This document shows positions 2,738-64,000 of a DNA stretch of 64,000 nt, in pieces. The position numbers and the translations under genes were made by a program. Within the stretch, counting starts at the first letter, position 1. Each line of letters opens with the position of its first letter. The notes under the pieces are model-generated. The model was not told where the DNA came from and did no database searches. It saw nothing but the letters and a program-made list of their open reading frames with translations. The DNA comes from Chloroflexota bacterium (lineage in GTDB: Bacteria; Chloroflexota; Dehalococcoidia; Lucifugimonadales; Australimonadaceae), in NCBI GenBank assembly GCA_022561985.1, contig JADFQE010000001.1:3344-67343 (forward strand). Reading direction: 5' to 3'.

Positions 2738-3202
2738 ATGGCCGCCATCAACCGCGTTGGGCACGTCGTTCTCTACGTCTCGGACGTCGGGGCCGCCGTG
2801 GACTTCTATCGGGACGCTCTTGGCATGGAGACGGTCCGCTACGACGATGAGCGGGGCATGGCCTTCATGTCCTTCGGCGCTCAGCACCACGACATCGGTC
2901 TGTTCAGGGTCCGCGGCGAGGCGACGCGCGGCAGCCTCGGCCTGGCCCACGTCGCGCTCGTCATCGACGGCGGCCTGAAGGAGCTCGAGGAGCTGCACGG
3001 GCGCCTCGTGAGCTGCGGCGCGAAGATCAAGAGCCTCACCGACCACGGCATGACCAAGAGCGTCTACTTCGAGGACCCCGACGGCAACCGTCTGGAGATC
3101 TACTGCGACACCATGAGCCAGGAGGAGGGCAAGCGCTTCCTGGGCAGCCGGCCCGGCCGTGGCGGCGAGTTCACCTTCGAGAAGGCCGGGGCCACGGGCT
3201 AG
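2738..3202 (+). CDS. VOC (glyoxalase/bleomycin-resistance/extradiol dioxygenase) family protein
   Basis: MAAINRVGHVVLYVSDVGAAVDFYRDALGME...SVYFEDPDGNRLEIY is a typical VOC fold signature. ATG 2738 has GGAGG 7 nt upstream. The track ORF begins at 2711. Confidence 0.8.
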   Translation: MAAINRVGHVVLYVSDVGAAVDFYRDALGMETVRYDDERGMAFMSFGAQHHDIGLFRVRGEATRGSLGLAHVALVIDGGLKELEELHGRLVSCGAKIKSLTDHGMTKSVYFEDPDGNRLEIYCDTMSQEEGKRFLGSRPGRGGEFTFEKAGATG

Positions 3203-4038
3203 CGCCTCGCCTCGCCCCGCATCGCTTGCGCGCCAGACGGACGCGCCCCGTTCGTCTTGGCGGGATCGTTCCACCCGCTGCGAGCAGGCAGCGATGCGCT
3301 GGAGGCCGATAACCCGTCGAGCTTGAGCGCGGTCTGACGATCTGGAACGGGTTGCCCCGATGGCGGAATAGTCCCTCACGTCCGCGGGACCGGCCGGATA
3401 CCGCCATATGCGATGGGAACTCCTTCTCCGGGGGCGTGAACCCCCATAACGCAGTCATGGGCCGCAGACGCAACCCTCGCGTCGGGGGCCGATATCTCAG
3501 GTCGGCTCCCCCCGGTCGTGGTGTCGATAACACCGGGATCGGGCGCGCCCGACCCCACGTTGCTGTTTCAGCAGTGGAATGCCATTGCGGCGGTGGAAAT
3601 CGGAGGTTGACACTCCGTCCGCCGTGCCGTTAGGGTTACGCGACTTTGCTGGCCCGGGTGCTTGGTACCAGCGTCCGGTGAGCAGGAGCCATCCTGTTTT
3701 CCGGGTCTACCGGCCCCGGTGTCCATCCTCCCCTTCGTGTCTCCACACGAGCCGATCTATGCCCGCCGCACGGTGATCGAACACGATGATTCATGTCTTT
3801 CGTCGAACCGCCGTCCGCGAAACCCGCTGTGAGATGCAGGGGGCGCTTTGCCCGTAGACGCAGGTGCGCAGGTGCGAGGCCCCTGGCCCGGTCCCCTGGC
3901 CTGGCCGAGAGATGTATCCGGACGACGTCCGGCTGAGGCGACACCCCGGTTCTCGGGAACGAGGAGCGCCGGTCCCCACGAGGAGACGGGCGGAGGGAGC
4001 GCGCCGGTGAAACACGGAATGACTCGGGAGGGCACTCG

Positions 4039-5559
4039 ATGCGACTGAGCAACGGCTCCGTGCGGCTTCTGATGATGATCGCCCTGGTGGCGGTGATGGG
4101 CGCGCTGATCGCGGCGTGCGGTGAGGACGAGGAGGAGGGGTCGAGCCGCACGCTGCGGATCGGCATGCTGGCCGACTACGACACGCTGGACCCGCCGAAG
4201 CTGCTGGGGTTGCCCGGCACCATCACGGTCGAGGCCACCTACGACGTGCTGGTCATGCGCAACCCGGACCTGACGCTTCAGCCGATGCTGGCGACGAGCT
4301 GGGAGGCCAACGACGACGCGTCGGAGTGGACCTTCAAGCTCCGCGAGGGCGTGAGATTCGCCCACGGCAAGGAGTTCACCGCCGAGGACGTGATCTACAC
4401 GTTCAACCGGATGTTCGAGGTCGAGTCGGCCCTCGCGAGCGTGATGGCGAAGCCGACGGCCATCGTCGCGGTGGACGACTACACGGTGCGGTTCGAGTTC
4501 GGCACCCCCAACGCCGTCCTGCTTGAATCCATCGTCAAGTACCACGCGCACATCACTCCCTCCGACGTGGACCCGGCGAGGTTCGCCCTCGAGACCTTCG
4601 GGACGGGCCCCTTCCGGATGACCGAGCTCGTGATCGGCGAGCGCGCGGTGTTCGAGAGGAACGAGGACTACTGGTGGGAGGGCCACCCCCTCGTCGACAA
4701 GATGGAGTACATCTTCCTGACGAGCCCCGAGGCCCGGGCCGAGGCGCTCAAGGCCGGCACCATCGACGTTGTCTTCGACCTTGAGATCTCCAGCATCCAG
4801 ACGATCGAGGACCACCCGGACACCAAGGTGATCGTCGCGCCCAGCGGGAGCTACATGGCCCTCGCCATGGACGTGCGCGAGGCACCGTTCGACGACATCT
4901 TGGTGCGGAAGGCCATGCAGGCCGCCACCGACCGGGAGGCGATCTTGCAGGGCGCGCAGTTCGGCCGGGGCGACATCGCCTACGACCACCCGATCCCGCC
5001 CACCGCCACCGTCTTCAACGACGCGTGTCTGCCCCCGGGCTACGACCCGGAGCTGGCCAAGAGCTTGCTCACGCGGGCTGGATACCCGGAGGGGCTTGAT
5101 GTGACCCTCTACACCTCCACGGCCGGAGCGGCCATGGTGGAGATGGCCACGGTCTTCAAGGAGAGGGCGGCCCCGGCCGGCATCAACGTCGAGATCGTGG
5201 TCGTGTCCGAGGACAACTACTGGGCGGACACGTGGATGAAGAAGCCCTTCACCACGGTCTGGTGGGGCGGACGTCCTCCCTACGAGGGGATCAGTGTGGT
5301 CTACGTGACCGGCGCGGCGTGGGGAGAGTCGTTCTACTCCAATGCGCGGGTGGATGAGCTGCTGGAGATCGCGTTTGGCCAGGGCGACCTTGAGGACCAG
5401 AAGGAGACCTTCGGCGAGCTCCAGTGCATCATCGTCGACGAGGTCCCGCGCATCATCCCCGTATTCCGGCCCGTGTCCCTGGGCCTGCGCAACGACGTGC
5501 AGGGGATGGACCCCATGTGGGACGGGACGATGACCGTCCACCGCGTCTACTTCGAGTAA
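4039..5559 (+). CDS. ABC transporter substrate-binding lipoprotein, peptide/nickel family 5 (DppA/OppA-like)
   Basis: 506 aa. The signal peptide has a lipobox (LIAAC). The protein is family-5 SBP-like throughout. It is the first gene of a four-gene ABC operon. Confidence 0.9.
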   Translation: MRLSNGSVRLLMMIALVAVMGALIAACGEDEEEGSSRTLRIGMLADYDTLDPPKLLGLPGTITVEATYDVLVMRNPDLTLQPMLATSWEANDDASEWTFKLREGVRFAHGKEFTAEDVIYTFNRMFEVESALASVMAKPTAIVAVDDYTVRFEFGTPNAVLLESIVKYHAHITPSDVDPARFALETFGTGPFRMTELVIGERAVFERNEDYWWEGHPLVDKMEYIFLTSPEARAEALKAGTIDVVFDLEISSIQTIEDHPDTKVIVAPSGSYMALAMDVREAPFDDILVRKAMQAATDREAILQGAQFGRGDIAYDHPIPPTATVFNDACLPPGYDPELAKSLLTRAGYPEGLDVTLYTSTAGAAMVEMATVFKERAAPAGINVEIVVVSEDNYWADTWMKKPFTTVWWGGRPPYEGISVVYVTGAAWGESFYSNARVDELLEIAFGQGDLEDQKETFGELQCIIVDEVPRIIPVFRPVSLGLRNDVQGMDPMWDGTMTVHRVYFE

Positions 5560-10617: not shown

Positions 10618-10713
10618 GCGCGCGCCCGCCTGACGCGACCGCCTGACGCGACCGACGGGTGCCGGTGCTATCATGCGTACGTGGCTGGAGCCCCATCTCC
10701 AGCCACGTTGCGT

Positions 10714-10789
10714 GGGCCTGTGGCGCAGCTGGGAGCGCGCCTCAATGGCATTGAGGAGGCCGAGGGTTCGAATCCCTCCAGGTCCACCA
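10714..10789 (+). tRNA. tRNA-Ala (anticodon GGC), CCA encoded
   Basis: Manual cloverleaf. Acceptor GGGCCTG/CAGGTCC includes the G3:U70 Ala identity pair. Anticodon loop ATGGCAT, T-arm GAGGG-TTCGAAT-CCCTC. An extended -10 box (TGCTATCAT) lies at 10666-10674. Confidence 0.9.
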
Positions 10790-10790
10790 G

Positions 10791-10814
10791 CAGGGCACAG
10801 CGCCGCACCCACTC
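10791..10814 (-). repeat. REP-like palindromic element, inverted orientation
   Basis: CAGGGCACAGCGCCGCACCCACTC starts 1 nt after the tRNA-Ala CCA end. It is the reverse complement of the GAGTGGGTSCAGGGCTGTGCCCTG family. Confidence 0.6.
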
Positions 10815-10949
10815 GGCAGGGCGCGGCCCATGGTATCGACGAACGCTCATGGGCGCTGGCCGGCCCGCTATGAACGACAGAGGTGCGCCCTTGTCAGCGA
10901 CGCTACCCCATGTGGGTCAAGGGCAGTGCCCTTGCGAGGTACCCGACGC

Positions 10950-11507
10950 ATGAGCCCACTCCCTGACTGGTACCGGGACTTCGTCGCGGCGGTCGTCGCC
11001 CACCTTCCGAGCGAGATCGACGAGGCGGCAGCCCGGCGGTGGATCAACGACCCCGGCGGCCTCGATGACGTGCTCGGCGCCCTGGCTGGCTCCGGCGGCG
11101 GGTCGCAGATAGCGGGCACCTTTGAGCACGATAAGACGAAGGACGGCTGGGTGCTCGTCGGGGACGTGACCGAGCCTTCGACCATCGCGGGCGACGTTAT
11201 CGAGATCACGCCGTTCAAGGCAGAGGGCGAAGAGGACCTCTTCGGGGACGAGGTGGTGGAGCGCGTGCTGGCGCTCGAGGGGGTGCTGGGACAGCGCCAC
11301 GCCGAGTTCCTGCTGGCCCATCCCGGCGAGATACCGGAGGAGTTCCAGCGGTACTCGCTGATCTTCCCCGGCACGATCTGGCGCAGCCCGGAGGGCAACC
11401 ACCAGGTGCCCTGCGCGAACTGGCGGCAGGGGGCTTGGGAGCTGACCTTCGGGATCGTCGAGGGCGGCTTCGACGCCGGCGACCGTCTGGTCCGGCTGCG
11501 CGCTTAG
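10950..11507 (+). CDS. hypothetical protein
   Basis: 185 aa from MSPLPDWYRDF, with an acidic, protein-like composition. No family recognised. The start was chosen at the first ATG after the junk-like N-terminal part of the track ORF. Confidence 0.5.
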   Translation: MSPLPDWYRDFVAAVVAHLPSEIDEAAARRWINDPGGLDDVLGALAGSGGGSQIAGTFEHDKTKDGWVLVGDVTEPSTIAGDVIEITPFKAEGEEDLFGDEVVERVLALEGVLGQRHAEFLLAHPGEIPEEFQRYSLIFPGTIWRSPEGNHQVPCANWRQGAWELTFGIVEGGFDAGDRLVRLRA

Positions 11508-11540
11508 GCGCCCAAGACTGCGCGCTAAGGCGCGCGGGCG

Positions 11541-12962
11541 CTAGAGCGGCGGGCGGCGCTCGTGCCAGTCGGTCCGCTGCTGGTAGGCGTACCCCACCCG
11601 GAACAGCGTGTTCTCGTCGAAGGGCCGCCCCGCGATCTGCATGCTGATGGGCAGCGCGCCTTCCGTGAAGCCGCAGGGCACCGCCATCGCCGGCACGCCC
11701 GCGAGGTTGAAGGGGCTGCGGTGCGAGCGCGACCCGAAGAACTGGCGCATCACCGCCTCCTTGCTGGTCAGCCCCGTCTCCGTCGCGATCTTGGGCGCCG
11801 CCTCCGGCTGCGTCGGCAGCACGAGCACGTCGAAGCGCCCGAGCGCCGCCATCACGTCGCGCCGCATCAGCGCGCGGAAGCGCGTCAGCTTCACGTAGGC
11901 CGCCGCCGGTATCAGGCTGGATGCCAGCAGCCGCCGTCGCGTCGCGAAGTCGTAGTCGGCCGGCCGCTCGCGGAGCCACCGGCGGTGGACGTGCGCCGCG
12001 TCCACGTCCGCCAGCACGTTGGCGATCAGCCCGCCGTGCGCGAAGAGCGGCAGCGTCGCGTCGGCGACCTTGGCGCCCGCCTCGCGGAGCACGCCCAGCG
12101 CCGCGTGCACGGCGGCCGCCACCTCGTCGCCCGCCGCGCCGTCGTCGATGGCCTCGCGCACCAGCCCCACGCGCAGCCCTTCTAGCCCCTGCTCCGGCGT
12201 CCAGTCGATGGGCTCGACAGGCCGTCGCGACGTGGACGGATCGCCGGGGTCGTGACCGGCGATGGCCCCGAAGACCAGCGCCGCGTCCTCCACCGTCTTG
12301 GCCATCGGGCCGACCGTGTCCATGGACCACGCCATCGGGAAGGCGCCACGGCGGCTCACGCGGCCCCACGTCGGACGCAGGCCGACGATGCCGCACCAGG
12401 CCGCCGGACTGCGGATGGACCCGGCGGTGTCGCCGCCGAGGGCCGCCGCGCAGAGCGACGCGGCGACCGCGACGCCCGAGCCGCTGGAGGACTGGCCGGC
12501 CTGGCGCTCCTCGTCCCAGGGGTTGTGGGGCACGCCGAAGGGGTGCTCGATGCTCCCGCCGAGGGCGTACTCGCTCATGTTGAGCTTGCCCAAGATCACC
12601 GCGCCCGCCTCGCGCAGCCGTGCGACCGCGCCCGCGTCCTCCAATGCCACGTAGTCGGCGATCCGCCCGCCGAGGGTGGTCCGCAAGCCCTTGACGTCGA
12701 GCTGATCCTTGACCGCGACCGGCAACCCGTGGAGCGGGCCGCGCGAGCTCCCGCGCGTCAGCTCGGCCTCGGCGGCGCGGGCGGCCCGGAGCGCGCCGTC
12801 GGGATCCAGCGTGATGTAGGCGTTGAGCCGCGCGAGCTCCCCGGCGCGCTTGAGGTACGCCTGCGTGAGCTCGACGGGCGAGAGCTCGCCGCGCGCGATC
12901 AGCGCCGACTGCGCGGTGGCCGAGGCGAGCGTGGGGTCGCTCGGGATATCACGGCTGGGCAT
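11541..12962 (-). CDS. amidase-signature (AS) family amidase
   Basis: GGSIEHPFGVPHNPWD...GQSSSGSGVAVAA...GGDTAGSIRSPAAWCG is the AS-family Ser-cisSer-Lys core. The start is taken at MPSRDIP (ATG 12962), adjacent to the stop of the upstream mini-ORF. Confidence 0.85.
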   Translation of the reverse strand: MPSRDIPSDPTLASATAQSALIARGELSPVELTQAYLKRAGELARLNAYITLDPDGALRAARAAEAELTRGSSRGPLHGLPVAVKDQLDVKGLRTTLGGRIADYVALEDAGAVARLREAGAVILGKLNMSEYALGGSIEHPFGVPHNPWDEERQAGQSSSGSGVAVAASLCAAALGGDTAGSIRSPAAWCGIVGLRPTWGRVSRRGAFPMAWSMDTVGPMAKTVEDAALVFGAIAGHDPGDPSTSRRPVEPIDWTPEQGLEGLRVGLVREAIDDGAAGDEVAAAVHAALGVLREAGAKVADATLPLFAHGGLIANVLADVDAAHVHRRWLRERPADYDFATRRRLLASSLIPAAAYVKLTRFRALMRRDVMAALGRFDVLVLPTQPEAAPKIATETGLTSKEAVMRQFFGSRSHRSPFNLAGVPAMAVPCGFTEGALPISMQIAGRPFDENTLFRVGYAYQQRTDWHERRPPL

Positions 12963-12963
12963 G

Positions 12964-13158
12964 CTACGGCTGCTCCTCGGCCGGCCAGGCCACCGGCAGC
13001 GGGTCGATCCGGTCCACGTCGGGGTGTTCGAGGGCCAAAACGGCCTCGTTGATGGCGTTGATCCGGTGCGTGACCTCGGCGAGGTCGTCATCGTCTTGGG
13101 GCGCGAGCCCGAGCGCCCGGAGCTGGGTGCGGACCTCTTCTGGGCTCAGATCGGCCAT
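12964..13158 (-). CDS. GatC/AtzG-like small subunit (64 aa)
   Basis: MADLSPEEVRTQLRALGLAPQDDDDLAEVTHRINAINEAVLALEHPDVDRIDPLP follows the GatC pattern (ls.eev..la.La.l.l...e...l...l..il..v..L...d...v.p). It lies directly upstream of an amidase. Confidence 0.55.
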   Translation of the reverse strand: MADLSPEEVRTQLRALGLAPQDDDDLAEVTHRINAINEAVLALEHPDVDRIDPLPVAWPAEEQP

Positions 13159-13280
13159 GCGCGCTCCTCTCCCTCAGGGATGGCAGCATCTTGGGGGCGG
13201 TGGCCCCCTCGGGCGGCAGCCATTCTAGCGCGCGGGCCGCTGCCCGTGCGTGCGCGCTCTGGTATGCTCGTAGCCTGGTT

Positions 13281-13369
13281 GGAGGGGTCGCATAGTGGCC
13301 TAGTGCACCCGCCTGCTAAGCGGGAGGGCCGGAAGGCTCACGCGGGTTCGAATCCCGCTCCCTCCGCCA
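13281..13369 (+). tRNA. tRNA-Ser (anticodon GCU), long variable arm, CCA encoded
   Basis: Acceptor GGAGGGG/TCCCTCC, anticodon arm CCCGC-CTGCTAA-GCGGG, long variable arm GGGCCGGAAGGCTCAC, T-arm GCGGG-TTCGAAT-CCCGC. Confidence 0.9.
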
Positions 13370-13395
13370 TCCCGGCACATCCCGCGAGGGGCTCG

Positions 13396-14685
13396 ATGAA
13401 CCGCTACCACGTCTGGACCGTCGGCTGTCAGATGAACAAGGCCGATTCCGAGCGGCTCGGCGCCGGTCTCGAGCAGCTCGGCCTCGTCTGGACGCCCAAG
13501 GCCAAGGACGCCGACGTCCTCATCCTCAATAGCTGCGTCGTCCGGCAGAACGCCGAGGACCGCGTCGTCGGCATGCTCACGAGCCTCAAGCCGTGGAAGG
13601 AGAGCAACCCCGGGGTGACCCTCGCGCTCATGGGCTGCATGGTGGGCCCGAAGAGCGACGAGCTGCGCGCCCGGTTCCCCTACGTCGACGTCTTCATGGC
13701 GCCCCAGCAGTTCGAGCCGCTGATCCGGCTCGTCGGCGACAAGGCCGGCATCGACCCGGACGGGTGCGTCGGGCCGCTCGTCCCCGGCCACCCGAACGTG
13801 ACGACCCACGTGCCCATCATCCACGGGTGCGACAAGTTCTGCACCTTCTGCATCATCCCCTACCGGCGCGGGCGTGAGGTCTCGCGGCCCCTCGATGAGC
13901 TCGTCGAGGAGTGCCACAAGCTCGTGGCCCGCGGCGTTCGCGAGGTGACGCTGCTCGGGCAGAACGTCGACTCCTACGGCCACGACCTGCCCGGCGCGCC
14001 GGACCTCGCCGACCTGCTGGAGGCCGTCCACGACGGCGTGCCGGAGCTCGTGCGCATCCGGTTCCTGACGTCGCACCCCAACGACATGAGCGAGCGCATC
14101 ATCGACGCGGTCGCCCGGCTCCCCCGCGCCATGGAGTGCATCAACCTGCCGTTCCAGGCGGGCAGCGACGAGGTGCTCTCGAGCATGCGCCGGGGGTACA
14201 CGAACGCGCAGTACCGCGAGCTCGTCGCTCGCGTCCGCGCCTCGGTCCCCGGCGTCGCCATGGTCACCGACCTCATCGTCGGCTTCCCCGGCGAGACTGA
14301 AACGCAGTTCGAGGACTCGCTCGCGATGGTCCAGGACCTCCGCTTCGACAAGGTGCACGCGGCCGCGTACTCGACGCGTCCCGGCACGATCGCCGCGCGC
14401 AAGCTCACCGACGACGTGGGGCACGAGGAGAAGCAGCGCCGCCTGCACGCCATCGAGGCCGTGCAGGAGAGCGTGCTCACGGAGATCAACGCGGGGTACC
14501 TCGGCTCCACGCAGGAGGTGCTGGTGGACGGCCGCTCGCGCGGACGCTGGCAGGGCCGGACGCGCACCGACAAGCTCGTCTTCTTCGACGACGAGCGCGA
14601 CCTGCTGGGGCGCCTGATGCAGGTGCGCATCACAAAGACGACCCCCTGGTCCCTCCAAGGCCATCTTGACGAAGCGCCCGCCTGA
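13396..14685 (+). CDS. miaB: tRNA-2-methylthio-N6-dimethylallyladenosine synthase (radical SAM methylthiotransferase)
   Basis: Starts YHVWTVGCQMNKADSERL. Radical-SAM cluster motif GCDKFCTFCIIPYRRG and a C-terminal TRAM-like region. It begins 26 nt after tRNA-Ser. Confidence 0.9.
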   Translation: MNRYHVWTVGCQMNKADSERLGAGLEQLGLVWTPKAKDADVLILNSCVVRQNAEDRVVGMLTSLKPWKESNPGVTLALMGCMVGPKSDELRARFPYVDVFMAPQQFEPLIRLVGDKAGIDPDGCVGPLVPGHPNVTTHVPIIHGCDKFCTFCIIPYRRGREVSRPLDELVEECHKLVARGVREVTLLGQNVDSYGHDLPGAPDLADLLEAVHDGVPELVRIRFLTSHPNDMSERIIDAVARLPRAMECINLPFQAGSDEVLSSMRRGYTNAQYRELVARVRASVPGVAMVTDLIVGFPGETETQFEDSLAMVQDLRFDKVHAAAYSTRPGTIAARKLTDDVGHEEKQRRLHAIEAVQESVLTEINAGYLGSTQEVLVDGRSRGRWQGRTRTDKLVFFDDERDLLGRLMQVRITKTTPWSLQGHLDEAPA

Positions 14686-41270: not shown

Positions 41271-42551
41271 ATGCTGTCTGAGCGTCTGAATGAGATCGTC
41301 ACGCGGGTCGGACCGGGAACGCCCATGGGGGAGCTCATGCGGCGGTACTGGCAGCCCGTGCTCCTGTCGTGGGAGCTGCCGGGCCCCGACTGCCCGCCTG
41401 TGCGCGTGCGGCTCCTGGGCGAGGACCTCGTGGCCTTCCGCGACACCAGCGGGCGCGTCGGGCTCCTTGAGGAGTGGTGCGCCCACCGCCGGACCTCCCT
41501 GTGGCTCGGGCGCAACGAGGAGGACGGGTTGCGGTGCGTCTTCCACGGCTGGAAGTACGACGTGACCGGCCAGTGCGTGGACATGCCCAACGAGCTGCCC
41601 GAGTACGACGTGAAGGACAAGGTGCGGGTCGTCTCCTACCCGACGCAGGAGCTGGGGGGCGCGATCTGGGCCTACCTGGGCCCGAAGGAGGCCCAGCCCC
41701 CCGCGCCCAACTTCGAGTGGACCCGCCAGCCGGAGAGCCACCGTCACGTCTCCAAGGGGCTGCAGGAGTGCAACTGGCTCCAGGCCCTGGAGGGAGGCAT
41801 CGACTCGATCCATACCTCCTTCCTGCACCGGCGCTTCACCGGTGGCCGGGCGGGCCTTGAGGGCCTCCGGGCGAAGGCGACGGCCGCCAAGCTGGAGGTC
41901 AACCTGACCTCCTACGGCTACACCTACGCCTCCATCCGGACCCTGGACGAGGGGGAGGGCAAGTACGTCCGGACGTATCACTACGTCATGCCCAACCACC
42001 AGATCCGCGCGATCCAGGGCTACACCGCCGACACCAAGGTGCAGAAGTTCAAGATCGCCGGGCACGTGTGGGTGCCGGTGGACGACGAGCACTGCATGAC
42101 TTGGAACTGGTACTACAGCCTGGACAAGCCCCTGGACGACGAGGAGCGGGACGAGGGTTTCTGGGGCAACGGGCCCAGCTACATCGATGCCAAGAACGGC
42201 TTCCGCGGCTACTTGAACAAGGCGAACGACTACAAGATCGATCGTGAGGTCCAGCGGATGGAGACCTTCACCGGCATCGAGGGGATCAACCAGCAGGACC
42301 GGGCGGTCCAGGAGGCCATGGGGCCGATCGTCGACCGCCGTGGGGAGCATCTCGGGCAGACCGACAAGGCGATCATCGCGTCCCGCAAGCTCCTGCTGGC
42401 CGCCGTCAAGACCGTCGAGGACGGCGGGGTCCCGCCGGGAGCCGACGACTCCTACTACGACCTCCGCGCCATCGAGCAGGTGCTGCCGCAGGACGCCGAC
42501 TGGGTCGAGGCGCTCAAGGACCTGATGTACCCGGCCGGCGTCCCGACCTAG
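41271..42551 (+). CDS. Rieske [2Fe-2S] non-heme iron oxygenase, alpha subunit type
   Basis: Rieske motif CAHRRTSLWLGRNEEDGLRCVFHGWKY. Mononuclear-iron motif NWLQALEGGIDSIHTSFLH. 426 aa. Confidence 0.85.
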   Translation: MLSERLNEIVTRVGPGTPMGELMRRYWQPVLLSWELPGPDCPPVRVRLLGEDLVAFRDTSGRVGLLEEWCAHRRTSLWLGRNEEDGLRCVFHGWKYDVTGQCVDMPNELPEYDVKDKVRVVSYPTQELGGAIWAYLGPKEAQPPAPNFEWTRQPESHRHVSKGLQECNWLQALEGGIDSIHTSFLHRRFTGGRAGLEGLRAKATAAKLEVNLTSYGYTYASIRTLDEGEGKYVRTYHYVMPNHQIRAIQGYTADTKVQKFKIAGHVWVPVDDEHCMTWNWYYSLDKPLDDEERDEGFWGNGPSYIDAKNGFRGYLNKANDYKIDREVQRMETFTGIEGINQQDRAVQEAMGPIVDRRGEHLGQTDKAIIASRKLLLAAVKTVEDGGVPPGADDSYYDLRAIEQVLPQDADWVEALKDLMYPAGVPT

Positions 42552-59569: not shown

Positions 59570-62044
59570 CTACTTCACCACCACGCTGACCAGGTAGCGG
59601 CCCGGCACGAAGACGACCTTGGTGACCTCGTGGCCGTCGGTGTAGGCGCGCACGCGCTCGCTCCCGAGCGCCTGCTCCCTGGCATCGGCCTCGCTGATGC
59701 CGGCCGGCACGGCGATGCGGTCGCGCACCTTGCCGTTGACCTGCACCACGAGCGTCGCCTCCTCGATGGCGGCGAGCGCGTCGTCCCACTCCGGCAGCGG
59801 CTGCGCGTGGATGCTGTAGGGGTTGCCGGTGCGCTCCCACAGCTCCTCGGTGACGTGTGGGGCCATCGGCGCGAGGAGCAGGAGCAGGCTGCGGATCGTC
59901 CCGGCCCAGACGGGCCGCGAGACCGTGCGGGCCTCCAGCGCCGGCCCCATCTCGTTGGTGAGCTCCATCATCGCCGAGAGCGCCGTGTTGTACTTGAAGC
60001 GCTCGATGTCGGTGATGACGCGCCGGATCGTCTGGTGCATGCGGCGGGTCATGTCGCGGTCGGCGGGGCCGTCGTCAGCCGGCAGGTCGTCCGTGGGACT
60101 CGTGCAGAGGTCCCAAACGCGGTTCATCCAGCGGGCGAGCCCGTTGATCCCCGCGTCGCTCCAGTCGCCGCCGCCCTCCCAGGGCCCCATGAACATGAGG
60201 TAGAGCCGGACGACGTCGGCGCCGAGCTCGCTCACGTAGACGTCGGGCGAGACCACGTTGCCGCGGCTCTTGCTCATCTTCATGTGGTCCGAGAGCACCG
60301 TGCCCTGGTTGAAGAGGCGCAAGAAGGGCTCGCCGTGGCCGACGAGGCCCAGGTCGCGGATCACCCTGGTGAAGAAGCGGGCGTAGAGCAGGTGCATCAC
60401 CGCGTGCTCGGCGCCGCCCGTGTACTGGTCGACGGGGCCCCACAGCTTCGCCTTCTCCGCGTCGAAGGGGGCGTCGCCTTCGTCCACGCTTACGTAGCGT
60501 AAGAAGTACCACGACGAGTCCACGAACGTGTCCATCGTGTCGGTCTCGCGGGTCGCCGCGCCGCCGCACTGGGGGCACGTCGTGTTGAGGAAGCCCGCAT
60601 GCTGCTTCAGCGGCGACTCGCCCGTCGGCTTGAACTCCGCGTCCTCCGGCAGGAGGACGGGGAGCTGGTCCTCGGGCACCGGCTGCATGCCGCAGTCGTC
60701 GCAGTAGAGGATCGGGATCGGCGTGCCCCAGTAGCGCTGGCGCGAGATCAGCCAGTCGCGCATGCGGTAGGTGACCTTCCGCTCGCCCCACCCCTGCTCC
60801 ACGATGTGGTCGGCGATGGCCTCGTACCCCTCGGCGTTCCCCATGCCGTCGAAGCGCCCCGAGCTCACCTGCGAGCCCGTGCGTCCCAGGTACGCCTCGG
60901 GCAGCGGCTCGCCGTCCCACTCCGGCGGCGCGACGACCACGCGGATCTCGAGCCCGTAGCGCTGCGCGAACTCGAAGTCGCGGGCGTCGTGGGCCGGCAC
61001 GCCCATGACCGCGCCCGTGCCGTAGGTCAGCAGCACGTAGTCCGCCGTCCAGATGGGCACGCGCTCCCCGCTCAGGCGGTTGATGGCATACGCGCCGGTG
61101 AACACACCCGTCTTCTCGCGCTCGGTGGACAGCCGGTCGATCTCGGACGCCTCGCGTGCCTGCTGCACGTACGCCTCGACCTCGGCCCGCCGCTCGCCGG
61201 TCGTGATGCGCGCGACCAGCGGGTGCTCGGGCGCCAGCACGAGGAACGTCACGCCGAACACGGTGTCGATGCGCGTGGTGAACGTGGCAATCTCGCGCTC
61301 GTCGACCCCGAGGTCCGAGATGTCGAACGATATCTCGACGCCCTCGCTGCGCCCGATCCAGTTCGTCTGCATCGTCTTGATGCGCTCGGGCCAGTCGAGA
61401 ACGCCGGAGAAGTCCAGGAGCTCGTCGGCGTAGGCCGTGATCTTGAAGAACCACTGCTCCATCTCGCGCCGGATGACGGTGTCGCCGGTGCGCTCGCAGC
61501 GGCCGTCGATCACCTGCTCGTTGGCGAGCACGGTCTGGCAGGTGGGGCACCAGTTGACGGGCGCGGCGGCCCGGTACGCGAGCCCCTTCTCGTACATCTT
61601 CAGGAAGAACCACTGGTTCCACCGGTAGTAGGAGGGGAGGCAGGTGACGATCTCGCGGTCCCAGTCGTACACGCAGCCCATGGAGCGGAGCTGGCCGCGC
61701 ATGCGCTCCATGTTGTCCATGGTCCATGCGTAGGGGTGGATGCCGCGCTTGATGGCGGCGTTCTCGGCGGGCAGGCCGAAGGCGTCGAAGCCGATGGGGT
61801 GGAGCACGTTGTAGCCGCGCATCCGCATGAAGCGCGCGTGGGCGTCGGAGGGCGCCATGGCGTACCAGTGGCCGATGTGCAGGTCGCCGGAGGGGTACGG
61901 ATACATGGTCAGCGCGTACCACTTCGGGCGCGGGTCGTCGTCGTCCACGTGGTAGATGCGGTCCTCGTCCCAGCGCCGCTGCCATTTGCGGTCGATGGCG
62001 GCTGGGTCGTAGCGGAGGCGGGAGGGTCTGGACGAGGTGGCCAT
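59570..62044 (-). CDS. leuS: leucine--tRNA ligase
   Basis: 824 aa from MATSSRPS. HIGH motif PYPSGDLHIGH, KMSKS motif, CP1 editing domain and Zn-like CPTC/CPQCG motifs. Confidence 0.95.
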   Translation of the reverse strand: MATSSRPSRLRYDPAAIDRKWQRRWDEDRIYHVDDDDPRPKWYALTMYPYPSGDLHIGHWYAMAPSDAHARFMRMRGYNVLHPIGFDAFGLPAENAAIKRGIHPYAWTMDNMERMRGQLRSMGCVYDWDREIVTCLPSYYRWNQWFFLKMYEKGLAYRAAAPVNWCPTCQTVLANEQVIDGRCERTGDTVIRREMEQWFFKITAYADELLDFSGVLDWPERIKTMQTNWIGRSEGVEISFDISDLGVDEREIATFTTRIDTVFGVTFLVLAPEHPLVARITTGERRAEVEAYVQQAREASEIDRLSTEREKTGVFTGAYAINRLSGERVPIWTADYVLLTYGTGAVMGVPAHDARDFEFAQRYGLEIRVVVAPPEWDGEPLPEAYLGRTGSQVSSGRFDGMGNAEGYEAIADHIVEQGWGERKVTYRMRDWLISRQRYWGTPIPILYCDDCGMQPVPEDQLPVLLPEDAEFKPTGESPLKQHAGFLNTTCPQCGGAATRETDTMDTFVDSSWYFLRYVSVDEGDAPFDAEKAKLWGPVDQYTGGAEHAVMHLLYARFFTRVIRDLGLVGHGEPFLRLFNQGTVLSDHMKMSKSRGNVVSPDVYVSELGADVVRLYLMFMGPWEGGGDWSDAGINGLARWMNRVWDLCTSPTDDLPADDGPADRDMTRRMHQTIRRVITDIERFKYNTALSAMMELTNEMGPALEARTVSRPVWAGTIRSLLLLLAPMAPHVTEELWERTGNPYSIHAQPLPEWDDALAAIEEATLVVQVNGKVRDRIAVPAGISEADAREQALGSERVRAYTDGHEVTKVVFVPGRYLVSVVVK

Positions 62045-62086
62045 GCGTGCTCCGGGGCCGTGGGCTGGAACCGCCAGTTTACCAGG

Positions 62087-62108
62087 CAGGGCACGCCCTG
62101 CACCCACT
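62087..62108 (-). repeat. REP-like palindromic element; forward relative to leuS transcription
   Basis: The plus strand reads CAGGGCACGCCCTGCACCCACT. On the minus strand it is followed 5 nt later by TGGTAAACT (extended -10; rc of 62076-84), then SD GGAG and the leuS ATG. Confidence 0.6.
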
Positions 62109-62197
62109 TGCTCGCGCCGGCCGCTGATGCCTACAACCGCCGTTGGGCGCTCGCCGGAACGCGCGGGTATCCCGTTTCGTGCCTCCGGATGTGCTGA

Positions 62198-62869
62198 CTA
62201 CCTCTCGGCCCTCGGCGCCCGCTCGAGCTCCTTCTCGAACGCGTCTGGCTGCCCGTGCTGACGGGTGTACCAAACGCCCTCGGTGAAGTACTGGCTCGCG
62301 ATCCCCTCGCGCTTGAGCTCCCGGAGCTTGACCGCCGAGTCGAGGGCCGGGCGGAGGTCGGGCTCGCTGGTCCAGTTCGCCTTGAAATGGACGTGGCCGG
62401 TGTGGTCGATGATCCAGCTCATGTTGGAGCACCCCGCCCACGTCCGGTGGACCGCGCCGTCCACGTCGTCGATCAGGATGATCCGGGGCGTCCCGTGCCG
62501 CTCCTTCATGATCCGCGCGTGGTCAAACTTCTGCTCGATCGAGCGGATGGCGGGGAACTCCGGATGCTTGTCCGGGTGCGCCTCTCTCGTGTAGACGAAA
62601 AGGAAGTGGGCCTCGTTCTCGTAGTCCCGGGCGAGCTGGTCCATGAGCGGGAACTCCCGCTGGCAGGGCGGTCAGGTGATGGAACCGAACTCGATGAGCA
62701 CCGGTTTGCCACGGAGGTCCGAGAGGGTGACCTCGCCGCCGTCCACCCGTGGGAGCGTGAAGTCCGGCGCGGCCTCGCCCGCACGAAAGATGTTCCTGAA
62801 GTCCCAATGCGGCTCCTTCAGGTACGGCGACGCGTCGTAGTTGTAGTCGTGACCGTGGAAGAGAGTCAT
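62198..62869 (-). CDS. deiodinase-like thioredoxin-fold protein with in-frame UGA (candidate selenocysteine at 62674-62672)
   Basis: Two same-frame ORFs are joined by a single TGA. The junction FGSIT-U-PPC...FLFVYTREAHP parallels the iodothyronine deiodinase FGS(C/A)T-U-PPF...YI(E/D)EAHP. AAGGAGG lies 5 nt before ATG 62869. Confidence 0.7.
62646..62661 (-). promoter_or_regulatory. bSECIS-like hairpin AGCGGG-AGUU-CCCGCU
   Basis: The stem starts 11 nt after the UGA. The apical loop begins 17 nt after the UGA and has G at loop position 2. Confidence 0.5.
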
Positions 62870-62973
62870 GCCGCCTCCTTCATTCGGGCGACGCCCGCGG
62901 GTCCGGATGATAGCACCGGCAAGCGCTCCTCAGAATGACAGGAACGGGCGGGCGCCGTCGGCCGCCGGCCGCG

Positions 62974-62998
62974 GAGTGGGTCAAGGGCTTTGCCCTTG
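62974..62998 (+). repeat. REP-like palindromic element (variant GAGTGGGTCAAGGGCTTTGCCCTTG)
   Basis: It overlaps the last codons and stop of the HIT gene on the opposite strand. Confidence 0.5.
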
Positions 62999-63409
62999 GC
63001 TGCGCCGTTTGCGGTTCGGGTCGTACTCCGTGCGGCCGTAGCGGCGCAGCCAGAAGTCGCCCTTGCGCGGGAAGTCCACGTAGAGGCCCAACCCCGTGCC
63101 GCCGATCACGTGGAGGTGGCCGTGCTCCTGGGTCTGGAGCGCGTCCTCGCCGAAGTTCGAGACGACCCGGAAGCCGCCCGGCGCGTCCGATCCGCCGATG
63201 TCGATGGCGAGGGCGGCGGCGCGGGCGAAGAGCGGCGAGCGCCAGAACTCCTCCTGGCCCATGTGGGCTTTGGGCGCGATGAGGTACATCACGGGCACCC
63301 ACGTCAGCTCGTTGTGGAAGACGATGAGGTCGTCGTCCTCGTGCCGGACGGTGCGGGGCAGCCGCCCGGAGACGATGCCGCAGAAGTCGCAGCCCCGGTC
63401 GCCGTCCAA
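62981..63409 (-). CDS. HIT (histidine triad) family nucleotide hydrolase/transferase
   Basis: CDFCGIV N-terminal motif and histidine triad EHGHLHVIGG. TTG start at 63409. The N-terminal region appears disrupted by a 37-bp duplication. Confidence 0.8.
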   Translation of the reverse strand: MDGDRGCDFCGIVSGRLPRTVRHEDDDLIVFHNELTWVPVMYLIAPKAHMGQEEFWRSPLFARAAALAIDIGGSDAPGGFRVVSNFGEDALQTQEHGHLHVIGGTGLGLYVDFPRKGDFWLRRYGRTEYDPNRKRRSQGQSP

Positions 63410-63499: not shown

Positions 63500-64000
63500 T
63501 CATCCAGCGCCGGCGGCGCGCTTGCGGCGTGGCGTCACGCTCGGCTGGCGGTAGTCGGGCGCGGTGATGGGCATGACCACCACGAGCCGTGGGTCGTTCA
63601 GCCGCGATGCGATCGGGTTGTTGGAGCCCGTGGGGATGGCGCGCGTGGTGATGACGGTGGGCAGCCGTGCGTTGTGCCGGTGGACGATGATCTGGTAGAG
63701 CTTCTCGTTCGCCCACGGGGTCGAGGTCTCGGAGCCGAGGTCGTCGAGCACCAGCAGGGGCGTCTGTTTCACGCGGTCGAACAGCTCGTCGTAGGTCACG
63801 CGGGAATCGGGGCTGAAGGTGTAGCGCAGGTGGTCGAGCAGGTCGGGCACGAAGGCGAAGAAGACCTCCTCCCCCCGCTGGAGCGCCGCGTTGGCGACGG
63901 CGACCGCGAGGTGCGTCTTGCCGCAGCCCGAGTCGCCCACGAGCACGAGCCAGCCGTGCGGGTCCCGCGCGAAGGCCGTGCTCATGGCGATCGCCGCCTG
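63500..64000 (-). CDS. DnaC/IstB-family AAA+ ATPase (helicase-loader-like), 5' end outside the window
   Basis: Walker A GDSGCGKTHLA, Walker B LLVLDDLG, sensor TTR. The ORF stays open to the window edge. Confidence 0.75.
   Translation of the reverse strand, partial: QAAIAMSTAFARDPHGWLVLVGDSGCGKTHLAVAVANAALQRGEEVFFAFVPDLLDHLRYTFSPDSRVTYDELFDRVKQTPLLVLDDLGSETSTPWANEKLYQIIVHRHNARLPTVITTRAIPTGSNNPIASRLNDPRLVVVMPITAPDYRQPSVTPRRKRAAGAG

What the first reader, a model, noticed from the sequence alone, without database searches (positions are those of the whole stretch)
62198..62869. In-frame UGA at a deiodinase-type active site: candidate bacterial selenoprotein with a SECIS-like hairpin
Two minus-strand ORFs, 62672..62869 and 62198..62644, are in the same frame. 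Only one TGA (62674-62672) and nine sense codons separate them.

Read through, the junction is ...RGKPVLIEFGSIT-U-PPCQREFPLMDQLARDYENEAHFLFVYTREAHPDKHP.... This aligns residue for residue with the vertebrate iodothyronine deiodinase core (RPLV(L/V)NFGS(C/A)T-U-P(P/S)F ... DFL(I/V)YI(E/D)EAH(P/A)SDGW). The stop falls exactly where those enzymes carry selenocysteine. It also creates a UxxC redox pair in a thioredoxin fold.

Ten nt after the UGA there is a 6-bp stem AGCGGG/CCCGCU with an AGUU loop (62661..62646). The loop begins 17 nt after the UGA and has a G at loop position 2, which is the geometry expected of bacterial SECIS elements.

The upstream half has its own strong SD (AAGGAGG, 5 nt) and a TGCTATCAT extended -10 box. 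The downstream half starts only at an internal Met and has no SD. Automatic annotation would split or truncate this gene.
Basis: partly seen in the sequence, partly recalled or inferred. Interest (0 to 1): 0.8.

Follow-up and report, generated by a model that had tools for sequence, protein, structure and literature searches.

The report
Bacterial deiodinase-like selenoprotein gene, mis-split
The two short minus-strand ORFs are one gene for a 223-residue selenocysteine-containing thioredoxin-fold enzyme of the bacterial "deiodinase-like" family, known since 2005, whose UGA codon makes gene callers cut it in two.

Summary

**The gene.** ORFs 62869-62672 and 62644-62198 (minus strand) share a frame and are separated by one TGA (62674-62672). 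With that TGA read as an amino acid (modelled as Cys for searching), the product passes Pfam T4_deiodinase. A family profile hits mouse Dio3 and Dio2 catalytic cores far above any other solved structure.

**Conservation.**
- All 79 related genome loci that include this site, out of the 80 kept, carry an in-frame TGA at the same FGS(I/V)T-U-P-x-C position. They come from Chloroflexota/Dehalococcoidia/SAR202, Ktedonobacterales, Actinomycetota and others.
- There is purifying selection on both sides of the TGA.
- Full-length homologs carry Cys at that position.

**SECIS.** A hairpin with G/U in a small apical loop follows the UGA at a fixed distance and shows compensatory changes. The nearest Cys homolog lacks it.

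**Sec machinery.** Two family members sit beside Sec-decoding genes: selB, selA and tRNA-Sec in cultured Haloechinothrix aidingensis, and tRNA-Sec in an Egibacteraceae MAG. The window itself holds no Sec genes, so its own genome remains untested.

**Novelty.** The family (PF00837, UxxC) was described by Zhang, Fomenko and Gladyshev in 2005. This is a new, mis-annotated member, not a new kind. Its substrate is unknown. The thyronine-binding features of animal deiodinases are absent.

The parts
62198..62869 (-). Complete gene for a 223-residue deiodinase-like selenoprotein: ATG at 62869, Sec codon 66, TAG stop at 62200-62198.
   Evidence: One frame. Pfam T4_deiodinase, AhpC-TSA and Redoxin all score above their cutoffs when U is replaced by C. 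The start is supported by orthologs that begin eight residues before a conserved YNY motif.
62672..62674 (-). In-frame UGA, read as selenocysteine 66. It corresponds to Sec170 of mouse Dio3.
   Evidence: TGA sits at the same position in all 79 related genome loci that include this site, out of the 80 kept. Homologs P0007 and P0055-P0067 have Cys there. It aligns to the Sec-to-Cys position of 4tr3.
62663..62665 (-). TGC codon for Cys69, the +3 partner in the U-P-P-C motif and the presumed resolving cysteine.
   Evidence: Read from the sequence. The Cys is conserved in almost all family members as UP(P/Y)C. Its role is inferred from CxxC/UxxC thioredoxin-fold chemistry.
62637..62671 (-). SECIS-like region. 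The core hairpin is 62661-62646 (AGCGGG / AGUU / CCCGCU), with weaker flanking pairs.
   Evidence: Fold. Family covariation. A covariance model built without the window sequence scores this site 41 bits (E about 2e-9), against 16 bits for the next best site in the window.
62576..62584 (-). Codons for Glu96-Ala97-His98 of the YTREAHP motif. These correspond to Dio3 Glu200 and His202 in the proton relay and substrate site.
   Evidence: E96, H98 and P99 are invariant in alignment A3. Residue roles are taken from PMC11592359.
62874..62880 (-). Shine-Dalgarno-like AAGGAGG, 4 nt upstream of the ATG at 62869.
   Evidence: Read directly from the sequence. Function not tested.
62907..62915 (-). TGCTATCAT, a possible extended -10 element. 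This is only a candidate.
   Evidence: The sequence is present. The consensus promoter scan found no full -35/-10 site in 62000-63100.

Best explanation
Positions 62869-62198 (minus strand) form a single gene for a cytosolic, thioredoxin-fold selenoprotein of the prokaryotic 'deiodinase-like' family.

**Translation (inferred from the established bacterial Sec pathway).** The hairpin 10 nt downstream of UGA-66 acts as a bacterial SECIS. SelB-GTP carrying Sec-tRNA(Sec) binds its G/U-containing apical loop and delivers selenocysteine to the UGA, so the ribosome continues to the TAG at 62198.

**Enzyme (inferred from homology).**
- Sec66 sits at the N-terminus of helix alpha-1 in the motif FGSIT-U-PPC. 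It is the nucleophile that attacks an oxidised or halogenated substrate.
- The resulting selenenic acid or selenenyl intermediate is resolved by Cys69, giving an intramolecular selenenylsulfide.
- A thioredoxin-type reductant then re-reduces that bond.
- The Ser63/Thr65/Tyr93/Glu96/His98 network, shared with Dio2 and Dio3, supplies protons.

**Substrate.** The natural substrate is unknown. The thyronine-recognition elements of animal deiodinases are missing, so it is not a thyroid-hormone deiodinase.

**Shown versus inferred.** Shown here: gene structure, family membership, conservation of the TGA, the hairpin and the catalytic residues, and linkage of family members to selA, selB and selC. 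Inferred: actual Sec insertion in this organism, and the chemistry.
For: **Gene structure**
- One frame with a single TGA.
- The identical split appears in three independent assemblies.

**Family membership**
- Pfam PF00837 scores 45.9 bits against a cutoff of 27.
- The family profile hits Dio3 (4tr3) at 106 bits, E = 1.6e-29, over profile positions 23-190. Dio2 (9h48) scores E = 4e-25. The best non-deiodinase scores 56 bits, on the N-terminal ~60 residues only.
- hhalign gives 99.4% probability against Dio3.
- The AlphaFold model of the closest Cys homolog P0007 (pLDDT 81.8) has 9h48 and 4tr3 as its top PDB matches.

**Sec codon**
- TGA is conserved in all 79 loci that include this site, drawn from several phyla. 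These are the top 80 of 493 matching loci.
- Full-length homologs have Cys at that position.
- dN/dS is 0.1-0.5 both upstream and downstream of the TGA.
- The internal Met is not conserved in the UPYC subfamily, so there is no conserved independent start.
- TGA is still an ordinary stop in this genome: 12 of 36 likely genes end in it.

**SECIS**
- The hairpin lies at a fixed distance, with G27 nearly invariant and mostly U at position 28 in the loop.
- Cells paired: 79% versus 63% in shuffles. Double-sided changes: 109 versus 43. Covariation score: 0.477 versus 0.09-0.20 for slid controls.
- The Cys homolog lacks the hairpin: -5.3 versus -13.3 kcal/mol.
- A covariance model built without the window sequence picks out this site alone.

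**Sec machinery in family members**
- L064 (Haloechinothrix aidingensis) has selB (270 bits, cutoff 242), selA (426 bits, cutoff 268) and tRNA-Sec directly beside the gene.
- L079 has tRNA-Sec about 40 nt from the gene start.

**Literature**
- Deiodinase-like protein, PF00837, UxxC, with a bacterial SECIS: PMC1088965, PMC2398784, PMC9312934, PMC13188914.
Against: - No selA, selB, selD or tRNA-Sec lies within the 64-kb window. The Sec trait of this particular genome is therefore not demonstrated.
- The window's own hairpin is short (6 bp). It sits one register away from the family majority, so 3 of 8 model pairs are non-canonical in that register. It is not significant alone.
- Much of the hairpin is dictated by the amino-acid sequence. 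Synonymous recoding loses only about 3.4 kcal/mol on average.
- The covariation shuffle control does not account for phylogeny.
- His219 of the Dio3 relay is Ile108 in this protein.
- Gene neighbourhoods gave no conserved functional partner, so the chemistry rests on homology alone.
- No experimental data exist for any bacterial member, as far as the searched literature shows.
Confidence: 0.9

Rival explanations
1. The TGA is a genuine stop. The locus is then either two separate small genes (65 aa and 148 aa) or a pseudogene inactivated by a nonsense mutation.
For: Gene callers annotate it this way in every database copy. A GGGAG lies 9 nt upstream of the internal ATG. No Sec machinery is in the window.
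Against: The same TGA is kept in all 79 loci that include this site, across phyla, with no other lesions. Purifying selection acts on both sides, including the nine codons between the TGA and the internal Met. The split would cut a thioredoxin fold at its active site. The internal Met is absent in the UPYC subfamily. Homologs have Cys at that position.
Confidence: 0.03
2. The UGA is recoded, but not to selenocysteine. It could be read as Cys or Trp by a variant tRNA or by near-cognate read-through, in a genome without selenium metabolism.
For: The Sec genes of this genome were not seen. One paralog in L065 carries TGG (Trp) at this position. Recoding of the Sec machinery to Cys has been reported in some uncultured bacteria; this rests on my own knowledge and I did not check it here.
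Against: TGA is a normal stop for about a third of the window's genes. A SECIS-type hairpin with covariation follows the codon. Family members are physically linked to canonical selA, selB and tRNA-Sec with anticodon UCA. The family has been catalogued as a selenoprotein family since 2005.
Confidence: 0.04
3. The TGA is a sequencing or assembly error for TGC or TGT, and the real gene encodes a Cys enzyme.
For: A single-base change would give Cys, and Cys-containing homologs exist.
Against: Identical TGA in three independent assemblies from different samples, and in 79 orthologous loci.
Confidence: 0.01
4. Functional rival. The protein is a selenium-dependent reductive dehalogenase acting on natural halogenated phenolics such as iodo- or bromotyrosine derivatives or bromophenols. 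On this reading it is not a generic peroxidase or disulfide reductase.
For: It is homologous to the only known Sec-dependent dehalogenases, and the Ser/Thr/Sec/Tyr/Glu/His network is conserved. Record titles point to many marine SAR202/Dehalococcoidia MAGs. That these include sponge-associated MAGs from organohalogen-rich habitats is my own reading of the isolate names, not a tested result.
Against: Loop-D is 7 residues shorter, and Trp207, Asp211, Arg275 and Cys239 of Dio3 are not conserved. The UxxC motif is typical of thiol-disulfide oxidoreductases. No dehalogenation-related neighbours were found. The original authors expected a general redox role.
Confidence: 0.12

Closest known systems
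Prokaryotic deiodinase-like selenoprotein family (Pfam PF00837, UxxC). Described by Zhang, Fomenko and Gladyshev 2005 (Sargasso Sea), found again in the GOS data, and listed in the 2022 and 2026 reviews.
   Same: Pfam family; Sec in a UxxC motif; bacterial-type SECIS immediately downstream with a G in a small apical loop; Cys-containing homologs exist; predominantly marine and uncultured bacteria.
   Different: Nothing essential. This is a specific high-GC (70%) member that is unannotated as a selenoprotein. I could not compare it directly with the published example accessions (MFL2763324.1, MBO99264.1).
Vertebrate iodothyronine deiodinases Dio1-3 (structures 4tr3 and 9h48).
   Same: Homologous thioredoxin/peroxiredoxin-like catalytic core; FGSxT-U-P motif with Sec at the same position; Y..EAHP motif (Tyr197, Glu200, His202); Asp244 equivalent.
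   Different: No N-terminal membrane anchor. Cys at +3 (UPPC) instead of Phe (UPPF). Loop-D is 7 residues shorter and lacks Trp207 and Asp211. Arg275 is replaced by Trp, Cys239 by Arg and His219 by Ile in the window protein. The SECIS is a bacterial in-frame hairpin, not a 3'-UTR element.
TlpA/ResA/DsbE-type thiol-disulfide oxidoreductases (CxxC thioredoxin-fold proteins).
   Same: N-terminal beta-alpha-beta portion and a redox pair spaced x-x apart. The fold matches are nearly as good as to the deiodinases.
   Different: Similarity covers only about the first 60 residues of the domain: 56 bits or less, against 106 for Dio3. The NCBIfam ResA model scores 50 bits against a cutoff of 170. There is no signal peptide or membrane anchor. 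The C-terminal half, including truncated database copies, matches only PF00837.
NCBIfam NF038285 'deiodinase family protein'.
   Same: Best NCBIfam match, 82.8 bits over residues 31-164.
   Different: Far below the curated cutoff of 250 bits, and the profile is 347 positions long. It is a related but distinct subfamily. No curated NCBI model covers this clade, which helps explain why it is routinely annotated as a truncated ORF.

Membership tests
Prokaryotic deiodinase-like selenoprotein (PF00837, UxxC) | Match to Pfam T4_deiodinase above the gathering threshold | tested here: met
   45.9 bits against a cutoff of 27, residues 22-141. Truncated homologs carry PF00837 on their C-terminal part.
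Prokaryotic deiodinase-like selenoprotein (PF00837, UxxC) | In-frame UGA aligned with Cys of homologs, within a UxxC motif | tested here: met
   The window reads FGSIT-U-PPC. P0007 has FGSLT-C-PNC and P0055-57 have FGSIT-C-P... TGA is present in all 79 loci that include this site.
Prokaryotic deiodinase-like selenoprotein (PF00837, UxxC) | Bacterial SECIS: hairpin just downstream of the UGA, with a small apical loop containing G | tested here: met
   A 6-bp stem with an AGUU loop starts 10 nt after the UGA. Family covariation. Covariance model hit of 41 bits. The window hairpin alone is not statistically significant.
Prokaryotic deiodinase-like selenoprotein (PF00837, UxxC) | Sec-decoding genes (selA, selB, selC, selD) in the same genome | not testable with these tools
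   None in the 64-kb window, and the rest of the genome is not available. In family members, selB, selA and tRNA-Sec lie next to the gene in L064, and tRNA-Sec lies next to it in L079.
Prokaryotic deiodinase-like selenoprotein (PF00837, UxxC) | Selenium actually incorporated at the UGA | not testable with these tools
   Needs 75Se labelling or mass spectrometry.
Iodothyronine deiodinases (Dio1-3), homology | Catalytic core homologous to the Dio thioredoxin/peroxiredoxin-like domain, with Sec at the start of alpha-1 | tested here: met
   Profile against 4tr3 gives E = 1.6e-29, and against 9h48 gives 4e-25. hhalign 99.4%. Foldseek top hits for the Cys homolog model are 9h48 and 4tr3.
Iodothyronine deiodinases (Dio1-3), function | Proton-relay residues Ser167, Thr169, Tyr197, Glu200, His202 and His219 (Dio3 numbering) | tested here: inconclusive
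   S63, T65, Y93, E96 and H98 are conserved. His219 is Ile108 in the window protein, though it is His in most family members.
Iodothyronine deiodinases (Dio1-3), function | Thyronine-binding elements: full loop-D with Trp207 and Asp211, the Arg275 clamp, and the distal Cys239 | tested here: not met
   Loop-D is 7 residues shorter. The aligned positions are Pro103 (for Trp207), Trp165 (for Arg275) and Arg129 (for Cys239).
Iodothyronine deiodinases (Dio1-3), function | N-terminal transmembrane anchor and a eukaryotic 3'-UTR SECIS | tested here: not met
   The N-terminus MTLFHGHDYNYDASPYLKEPHWDF has no hydrophobic segment. The recoding signal is an in-frame bacterial hairpin.
TlpA/ResA/DsbE thiol-disulfide oxidoreductases | Full-length match to the family models, and an extracytoplasmic anchor | tested here: not met
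   The NCBIfam ResA model scores 50 bits against a cutoff of 170, and TlpA scores 30 against 230. PDB ResA/TlpA matches are limited to about residues 27-95. No signal peptide is visible.
NCBIfam NF038285 deiodinase family protein | Score above the curated cutoff | tested here: not met
   82.8 bits against a cutoff of 250.

The most novel reading that the evidence does not exclude
The UPxC deiodinase-like clade may be a cobalamin-independent, selenium-dependent reductive dehalogenase. It would act on natural iodinated or brominated phenolics in Dehalococcoidia/SAR202 and Actinomycetota. That would make Sec-based dehalogenation an ancient bacterial chemistry from which animal thyroid-hormone deiodinases descend. 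It would be directly testable in the cultured Haloechinothrix aidingensis YIM 98757, whose copy sits beside selB, selA and tRNA-Sec.
Probability: 0.1. Interest if true: 0.75.

Novelty: new member of a known kind. Interest (0 to 1): 0.3.

Why it matters
**Annotation.** The gene shows how consistently this family is mis-annotated.
- About 54 of the closest database proteins are C-terminal fragments that start at the internal Met.
- No curated NCBIfam model covers the clade.
- At least 493 loci among species-representative genomes carry a relative. All 79 of the 80 inspected loci that include the site have the in-frame TGA.

**Biology.** The function of bacterial deiodinase homologs has been open since 2005. 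Two results from this analysis help:
- A residue-level map of which Dio features are conserved and which are lost.
- A cultured actinomycete whose copy is adjacent to selB, selA and tRNA-Sec, which gives an experimental entry point.

For the window itself, the result is an ordinary gene-model correction: one 223-codon selenoprotein gene instead of two ORFs.

Tried and rejected
- **Rfam.** A scan of the whole window at gathering thresholds found only four tRNAs and no SECIS family.
- **tRNA-Sec.** ARAGORN found none in the window or in L004-L063. It was found only in L064 and L079.
- **Sec enzymes.** Motif scans for SelA, SelB and SelD across the window and all loci hit only L064. selD was not found near the L064 cluster.
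- **L079 neighbours.** ORFs beside the tRNA-Sec in L079 had no NCBIfam hit, perhaps because I chose the wrong frames.
- **Gene neighbourhoods.** Clustering over 79 loci gave only lineage synteny: GFO/IDH/MocA oxidoreductase, amidohydrolase, MutS, a Zn-ribbon protein, luciferase-like monooxygenase and glyoxalase. There was no consistent functional partner.
- **Promoter and terminator scan.** It found nothing in 62000-63100.
- **Other TGA-split genes.** A scan of the window found no second convincing candidate.
- **Hairpin statistics.** Single-sequence tests for the window hairpin were not significant.
- **Literature.** Searches for a characterised bacterial iodothyronine-deiodinase homolog, or for SAR202 selenoproteins, returned nothing specific.
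- **Rejected readings.** A reassigned genetic code, because TGA ends 12 of 36 likely genes. Membership of TlpA/ResA.
Full report
**1. Observation**

On the minus strand an ATG at 62869 opens 65 sense codons. These are followed by TGA (62674-62672), nine sense codons, an internal ATG (62644) and a further 147 codons up to TAG (62200-62198), all in one frame.

The hairpin AGCGGG/AGUU/CCCGCU occupies 62661-62646, beginning 10 nt after the UGA.

Minor corrections:
- The AAGGAGG-to-ATG spacer is 4 nt, not 5.
- A weak GGGAG lies 9 nt before the internal ATG, inside the hairpin.
- The consensus scan finds no complete sigma-70 promoter around TGCTATCAT.

The window is 69.8% G+C. Of its 222 TGA sites with at least 40 open codons on both sides, only this one has two flanks that read as ordinary protein sequence, as judged by eye among the 13 sites that passed a GC3 filter. 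The exact 148-residue downstream ORF, preceded by the same 65-codon ORF and TGA, occurs in three independent assemblies from different samples (L001-L003). An assembly error is therefore very unlikely.

**2. What the protein is**

With Sec written as Cys, the 223-residue product passes three Pfam models: T4_deiodinase (45.9 bits, cutoff 27, residues 22-141), AhpC-TSA and Redoxin.

As a single sequence against the PDB it hits TlpA/ResA-like thioredoxins and mouse Dio2/Dio3 about equally. A profile of 31 family members (A3) separates them clearly:

| Target | Result |
|---|---|
| Dio3, 4tr3 | 106 bits, E = 1.6e-29, profile positions 23-190 |
| Dio2, 9h48 | E = 4e-25 |
| Best TlpA/ResA-like | 56 bits, N-terminal ~60 residues only |

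hhalign against the Dio3 core gives 99.4% probability. Its AlphaFold model has mean pLDDT 81.8. Its best PDB matches are 9h48 and 4tr3, narrowly ahead of ResA-type proteins.

Residue mapping to mouse Dio3 (residue roles from PMC11592359):
- Conserved: Ser63/Thr65/Sec66 = Ser167/Thr169/Sec170; Tyr93 = Tyr197; Glu96 = Glu200; His98 = His202; Asp134 = Asp244.
- Not conserved: loop-D is 7 residues shorter, with no Trp207 or Asp211. Arg275 aligns to Trp165, Cys239 to Arg129, and His219 to Ile108 (His in most relatives).
- Different motif: Phe173 of Dio3 is Cys69 here, giving U-P-P-C.
- No hydrophobic N-terminal segment is present.

So the protein belongs to the deiodinase homology family but lacks the elements that recognise thyronines.

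**3. Is the UGA a Sec codon?**

*Database homologs.* A search of 5.8 billion proteins returned about 54 close homologs of 134-185 residues. Each covers only the C-terminal 45-66% of the query, and the ones I inspected start at the same internal Met. This is the signature of systematic truncation at a stop. Full-length homologs carry Cys at the aligned position (P0007 FGSLT-C-PNC; P0055-P0067 FGSIT-C-PPF).

*Genome loci.* A scan of one genome per GTDB species found 493 matching loci. In the best 80, every locus that includes this site (79) has an in-frame TGA at FGS(I/V/L/F/Y)T-U-P(P/Y)C, with conserved protein sequence on both sides. The remaining locus, L050, is cut off by the contig end. The hosts are:
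- Mostly Dehalococcoidia/SAR202/Chloroflexota.
- Also Ktedonobacterales, Thermomicrobiales, Streptosporangiales, Trebonia, Gaiellaceae, Egibacteraceae, Rokubacteria and Polyangiaceae.
- One cultured isolate, Haloechinothrix aidingensis YIM 98757.

*Other tests.*
- dN/dS against ten orthologs is 0.1-0.5 for the 45 codons upstream and the 24 codons downstream of the TGA.
- The internal Met is Leu in the UPYC subfamily, so there is no conserved independent start.
- TGA ends 12 of 36 likely genes in the window, so the genetic code is not reassigned.

**4. The SECIS**

Every ortholog can form a hairpin starting 10-13 nt after the UGA. In an ungapped, codon-register alignment of 77 distinct sequences, G25 is invariant and G24 and G27 are nearly so. 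The loop carries G27 and mostly U at position 28.

For the majority register (8 pairs), one search gives:

| Measure | Observed | Control |
|---|---|---|
| Cells paired | 79.4% | 63.1% in shuffles |
| Double-sided changes | 109 | 43 in shuffles |
| Pairs with compensatory changes | 7 of 8 | n/a |
| Covariation score | 0.477 | 0.09-0.20 for slid controls |

Stems differ widely between clades: AGCGGG/CCCGCU, AGGGGG/CCCCCU, GGACUGGC/GCCGGUCC, GCAGAGG/CCUCUGC.

The window and its closest relatives use a register shifted by one nucleotide, with a 4-nt AGUU loop instead of the 3-nt GUC/GUU/GGC loops of the majority. An actinobacterial group is shifted further.

Controls:
- Synonymous recoding shows the hairpin is partly imposed by the peptide. 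The family mean is -14.2 versus -10.8 kcal/mol, and the window alone gives p = 0.12.
- The window hairpin is not exceptional against dinucleotide shuffles (z = -0.84).
- The nearest Cys homolog (TGC, L084) keeps ...EFPL... but has lost the stem: -5.3 versus -13.3 kcal/mol over the same 39 nt.
- A covariance model built from 69 family sequences, excluding the window, scores 62674-62637(-) at 41 bits (E about 2e-9). The next best site in the window scores 16 bits. Much of this score reflects sequence conservation.

**5. Sec machinery**

The window holds four ordinary tRNAs and no tRNA-Sec. It has no SelA, SelB or SelD motifs. Pfam annotation of ten large ORFs shows housekeeping genes only. That is uninformative for a 64-kb sample of a genome.

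Among family members the evidence is positive:
- L064 (H. aidingensis) has the gene convergent with selB (TIGR00475, 270 bits, cutoff 242). This is followed by selA (TIGR00474, 426 bits, cutoff 268) and tRNA-Sec with anticodon UCA.
- L079 (an Egibacteraceae MAG) has tRNA-Sec about 40 nt from the gene start.

The family therefore lives in Sec-decoding genomes and is sometimes physically linked to the machinery.

**6. Mechanism (inferred)**

*Translation.* SelB-GTP carrying Sec-tRNA(Sec) binds the hairpin loop and decodes UGA-66. This is the established bacterial Sec pathway.

*Chemistry.* Sec66 at the N-terminus of helix alpha-1 attacks the substrate, and Cys69 resolves the intermediate into a selenenylsulfide. 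A thioredoxin-like reductant then recycles the enzyme. The conserved Ser/Thr/Tyr/Glu/His network relays protons.

*Substrate.* It is unknown. A generic peroxide or disulfide redox role fits the UxxC motif and matches the original authors' expectation. A dehalogenase role towards natural halophenolics is not excluded. Gene neighbourhoods gave no functional clue.

**7. Comparison with what is known**

'Deiodinase-like protein, Pfam00837' was reported as a new bacterial selenoprotein family, with Cys homologs and bacterial SECIS elements:
- In the Sargasso Sea analysis: 4 Sec-containing and 6 Cys-containing sequences (PMC1088965).
- In the GOS data (PMC2398784).
- In the 2022 and 2026 reviews, listed with the UxxC motif (PMC9312934; PMC13188914).

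The window gene meets every defining feature that I could test. No curated NCBIfam model covers this clade: the best is NF038285 at 82.8 bits against a cutoff of 250. That fits the pervasive truncated annotations.

**8. Verdict**

- Novelty is low: this is a new, mis-annotated member of a known kind.
- Rivals (a genuine stop or pseudogene, non-Sec recoding, assembly error) together carry less than 10%.
- Still open: the Sec trait of this particular genome, and the substrate.
- Interest is about 0.3. It rests mainly on the annotation lesson, the breadth of the family in Chloroflexota and Actinomycetota, and the cultured H. aidingensis as a route to testing what bacterial deiodinase homologs do.

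Noticed in passing
L064:10001-13866 (Haloechinothrix aidingensis YIM 98757, NZ_JACCKD010000001.1): In this cultured actinomycete the deiodinase-like UGA gene lies directly beside selB (10692-12470, minus strand), selA (12434-13726, minus strand) and tRNA-Sec (13774-13866, minus strand). It looks like a compact Sec island, and the organism could be used experimentally. selD was not found in the adjacent 1.3 kb.
   Followed up: partly
L079:4127-4929 (Egibacteraceae MAG DATLGM010000354.1): tRNA-Sec (4127-4222, minus strand) lies about 40 nt from the start of the deiodinase-like gene, in divergent orientation. The neighbouring ORFs I scanned had no NCBIfam hit.
   Followed up: partly
L065: TGG codon at nt 4044, with the TGA copy upstream within the tblastn match 2911-3540 (Deltaproteobacteria MAG JACQUW010000361.1): Two deiodinase-like paralogs lie within roughly 1 kb of each other. 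One has TGA (UPYC). The other has TGG, giving Trp at the Sec position (FGSITWPPF), and is also followed by a strong hairpin. It could be a Sec-to-Trp derivative or a base-call error.
   Followed up: no
window, 36 GC3-selected ORFs across 1-64000: Stop-codon usage is TAG 20, TGA 12, TAA 4. TAG seems a high share for a genome of 70% G+C (my impression; I ran no comparison). Several family genes in other genomes also end in TAG.
   Followed up: no
window 62840-62842 region (residues 10-12) and all family loci: A YNY motif about 55 residues upstream of Sec is conserved in all subfamilies, outside the thioredoxin fold. The corresponding N-terminal region of the modelled Cys homolog has low pLDDT. 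Its role is unknown.
   Followed up: no
window 62981-63409 (-) and 63500-63985 (-): The upstream neighbours are a small protein with an HGHLHVIGG histidine-triad-like motif and an IstB/DnaC-like ATPase. The first gives only a weak HinT-like NCBIfam hit (26 bits, cutoff 130). The second matches PF01695 at 58.8 bits. LeuRS lies downstream of the selenoprotein gene at 59570-62107 (-).
   Followed up: partly
L011:10714-11100 and 17 other SAR202/Dehalococcoidia loci: A small Zn_ribbon_8 (FmdB-type) protein gene sits about 0.5 kb downstream on the same strand in 18 loci. This may be lineage synteny rather than a functional link.
   Followed up: partly
window 41271-42551 (+): A Rieske [2Fe-2S] plus LigXa_C-type oxygenase, a family that includes lignin-derived aromatic demethylases. 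It is unrelated to the finding.
   Followed up: no
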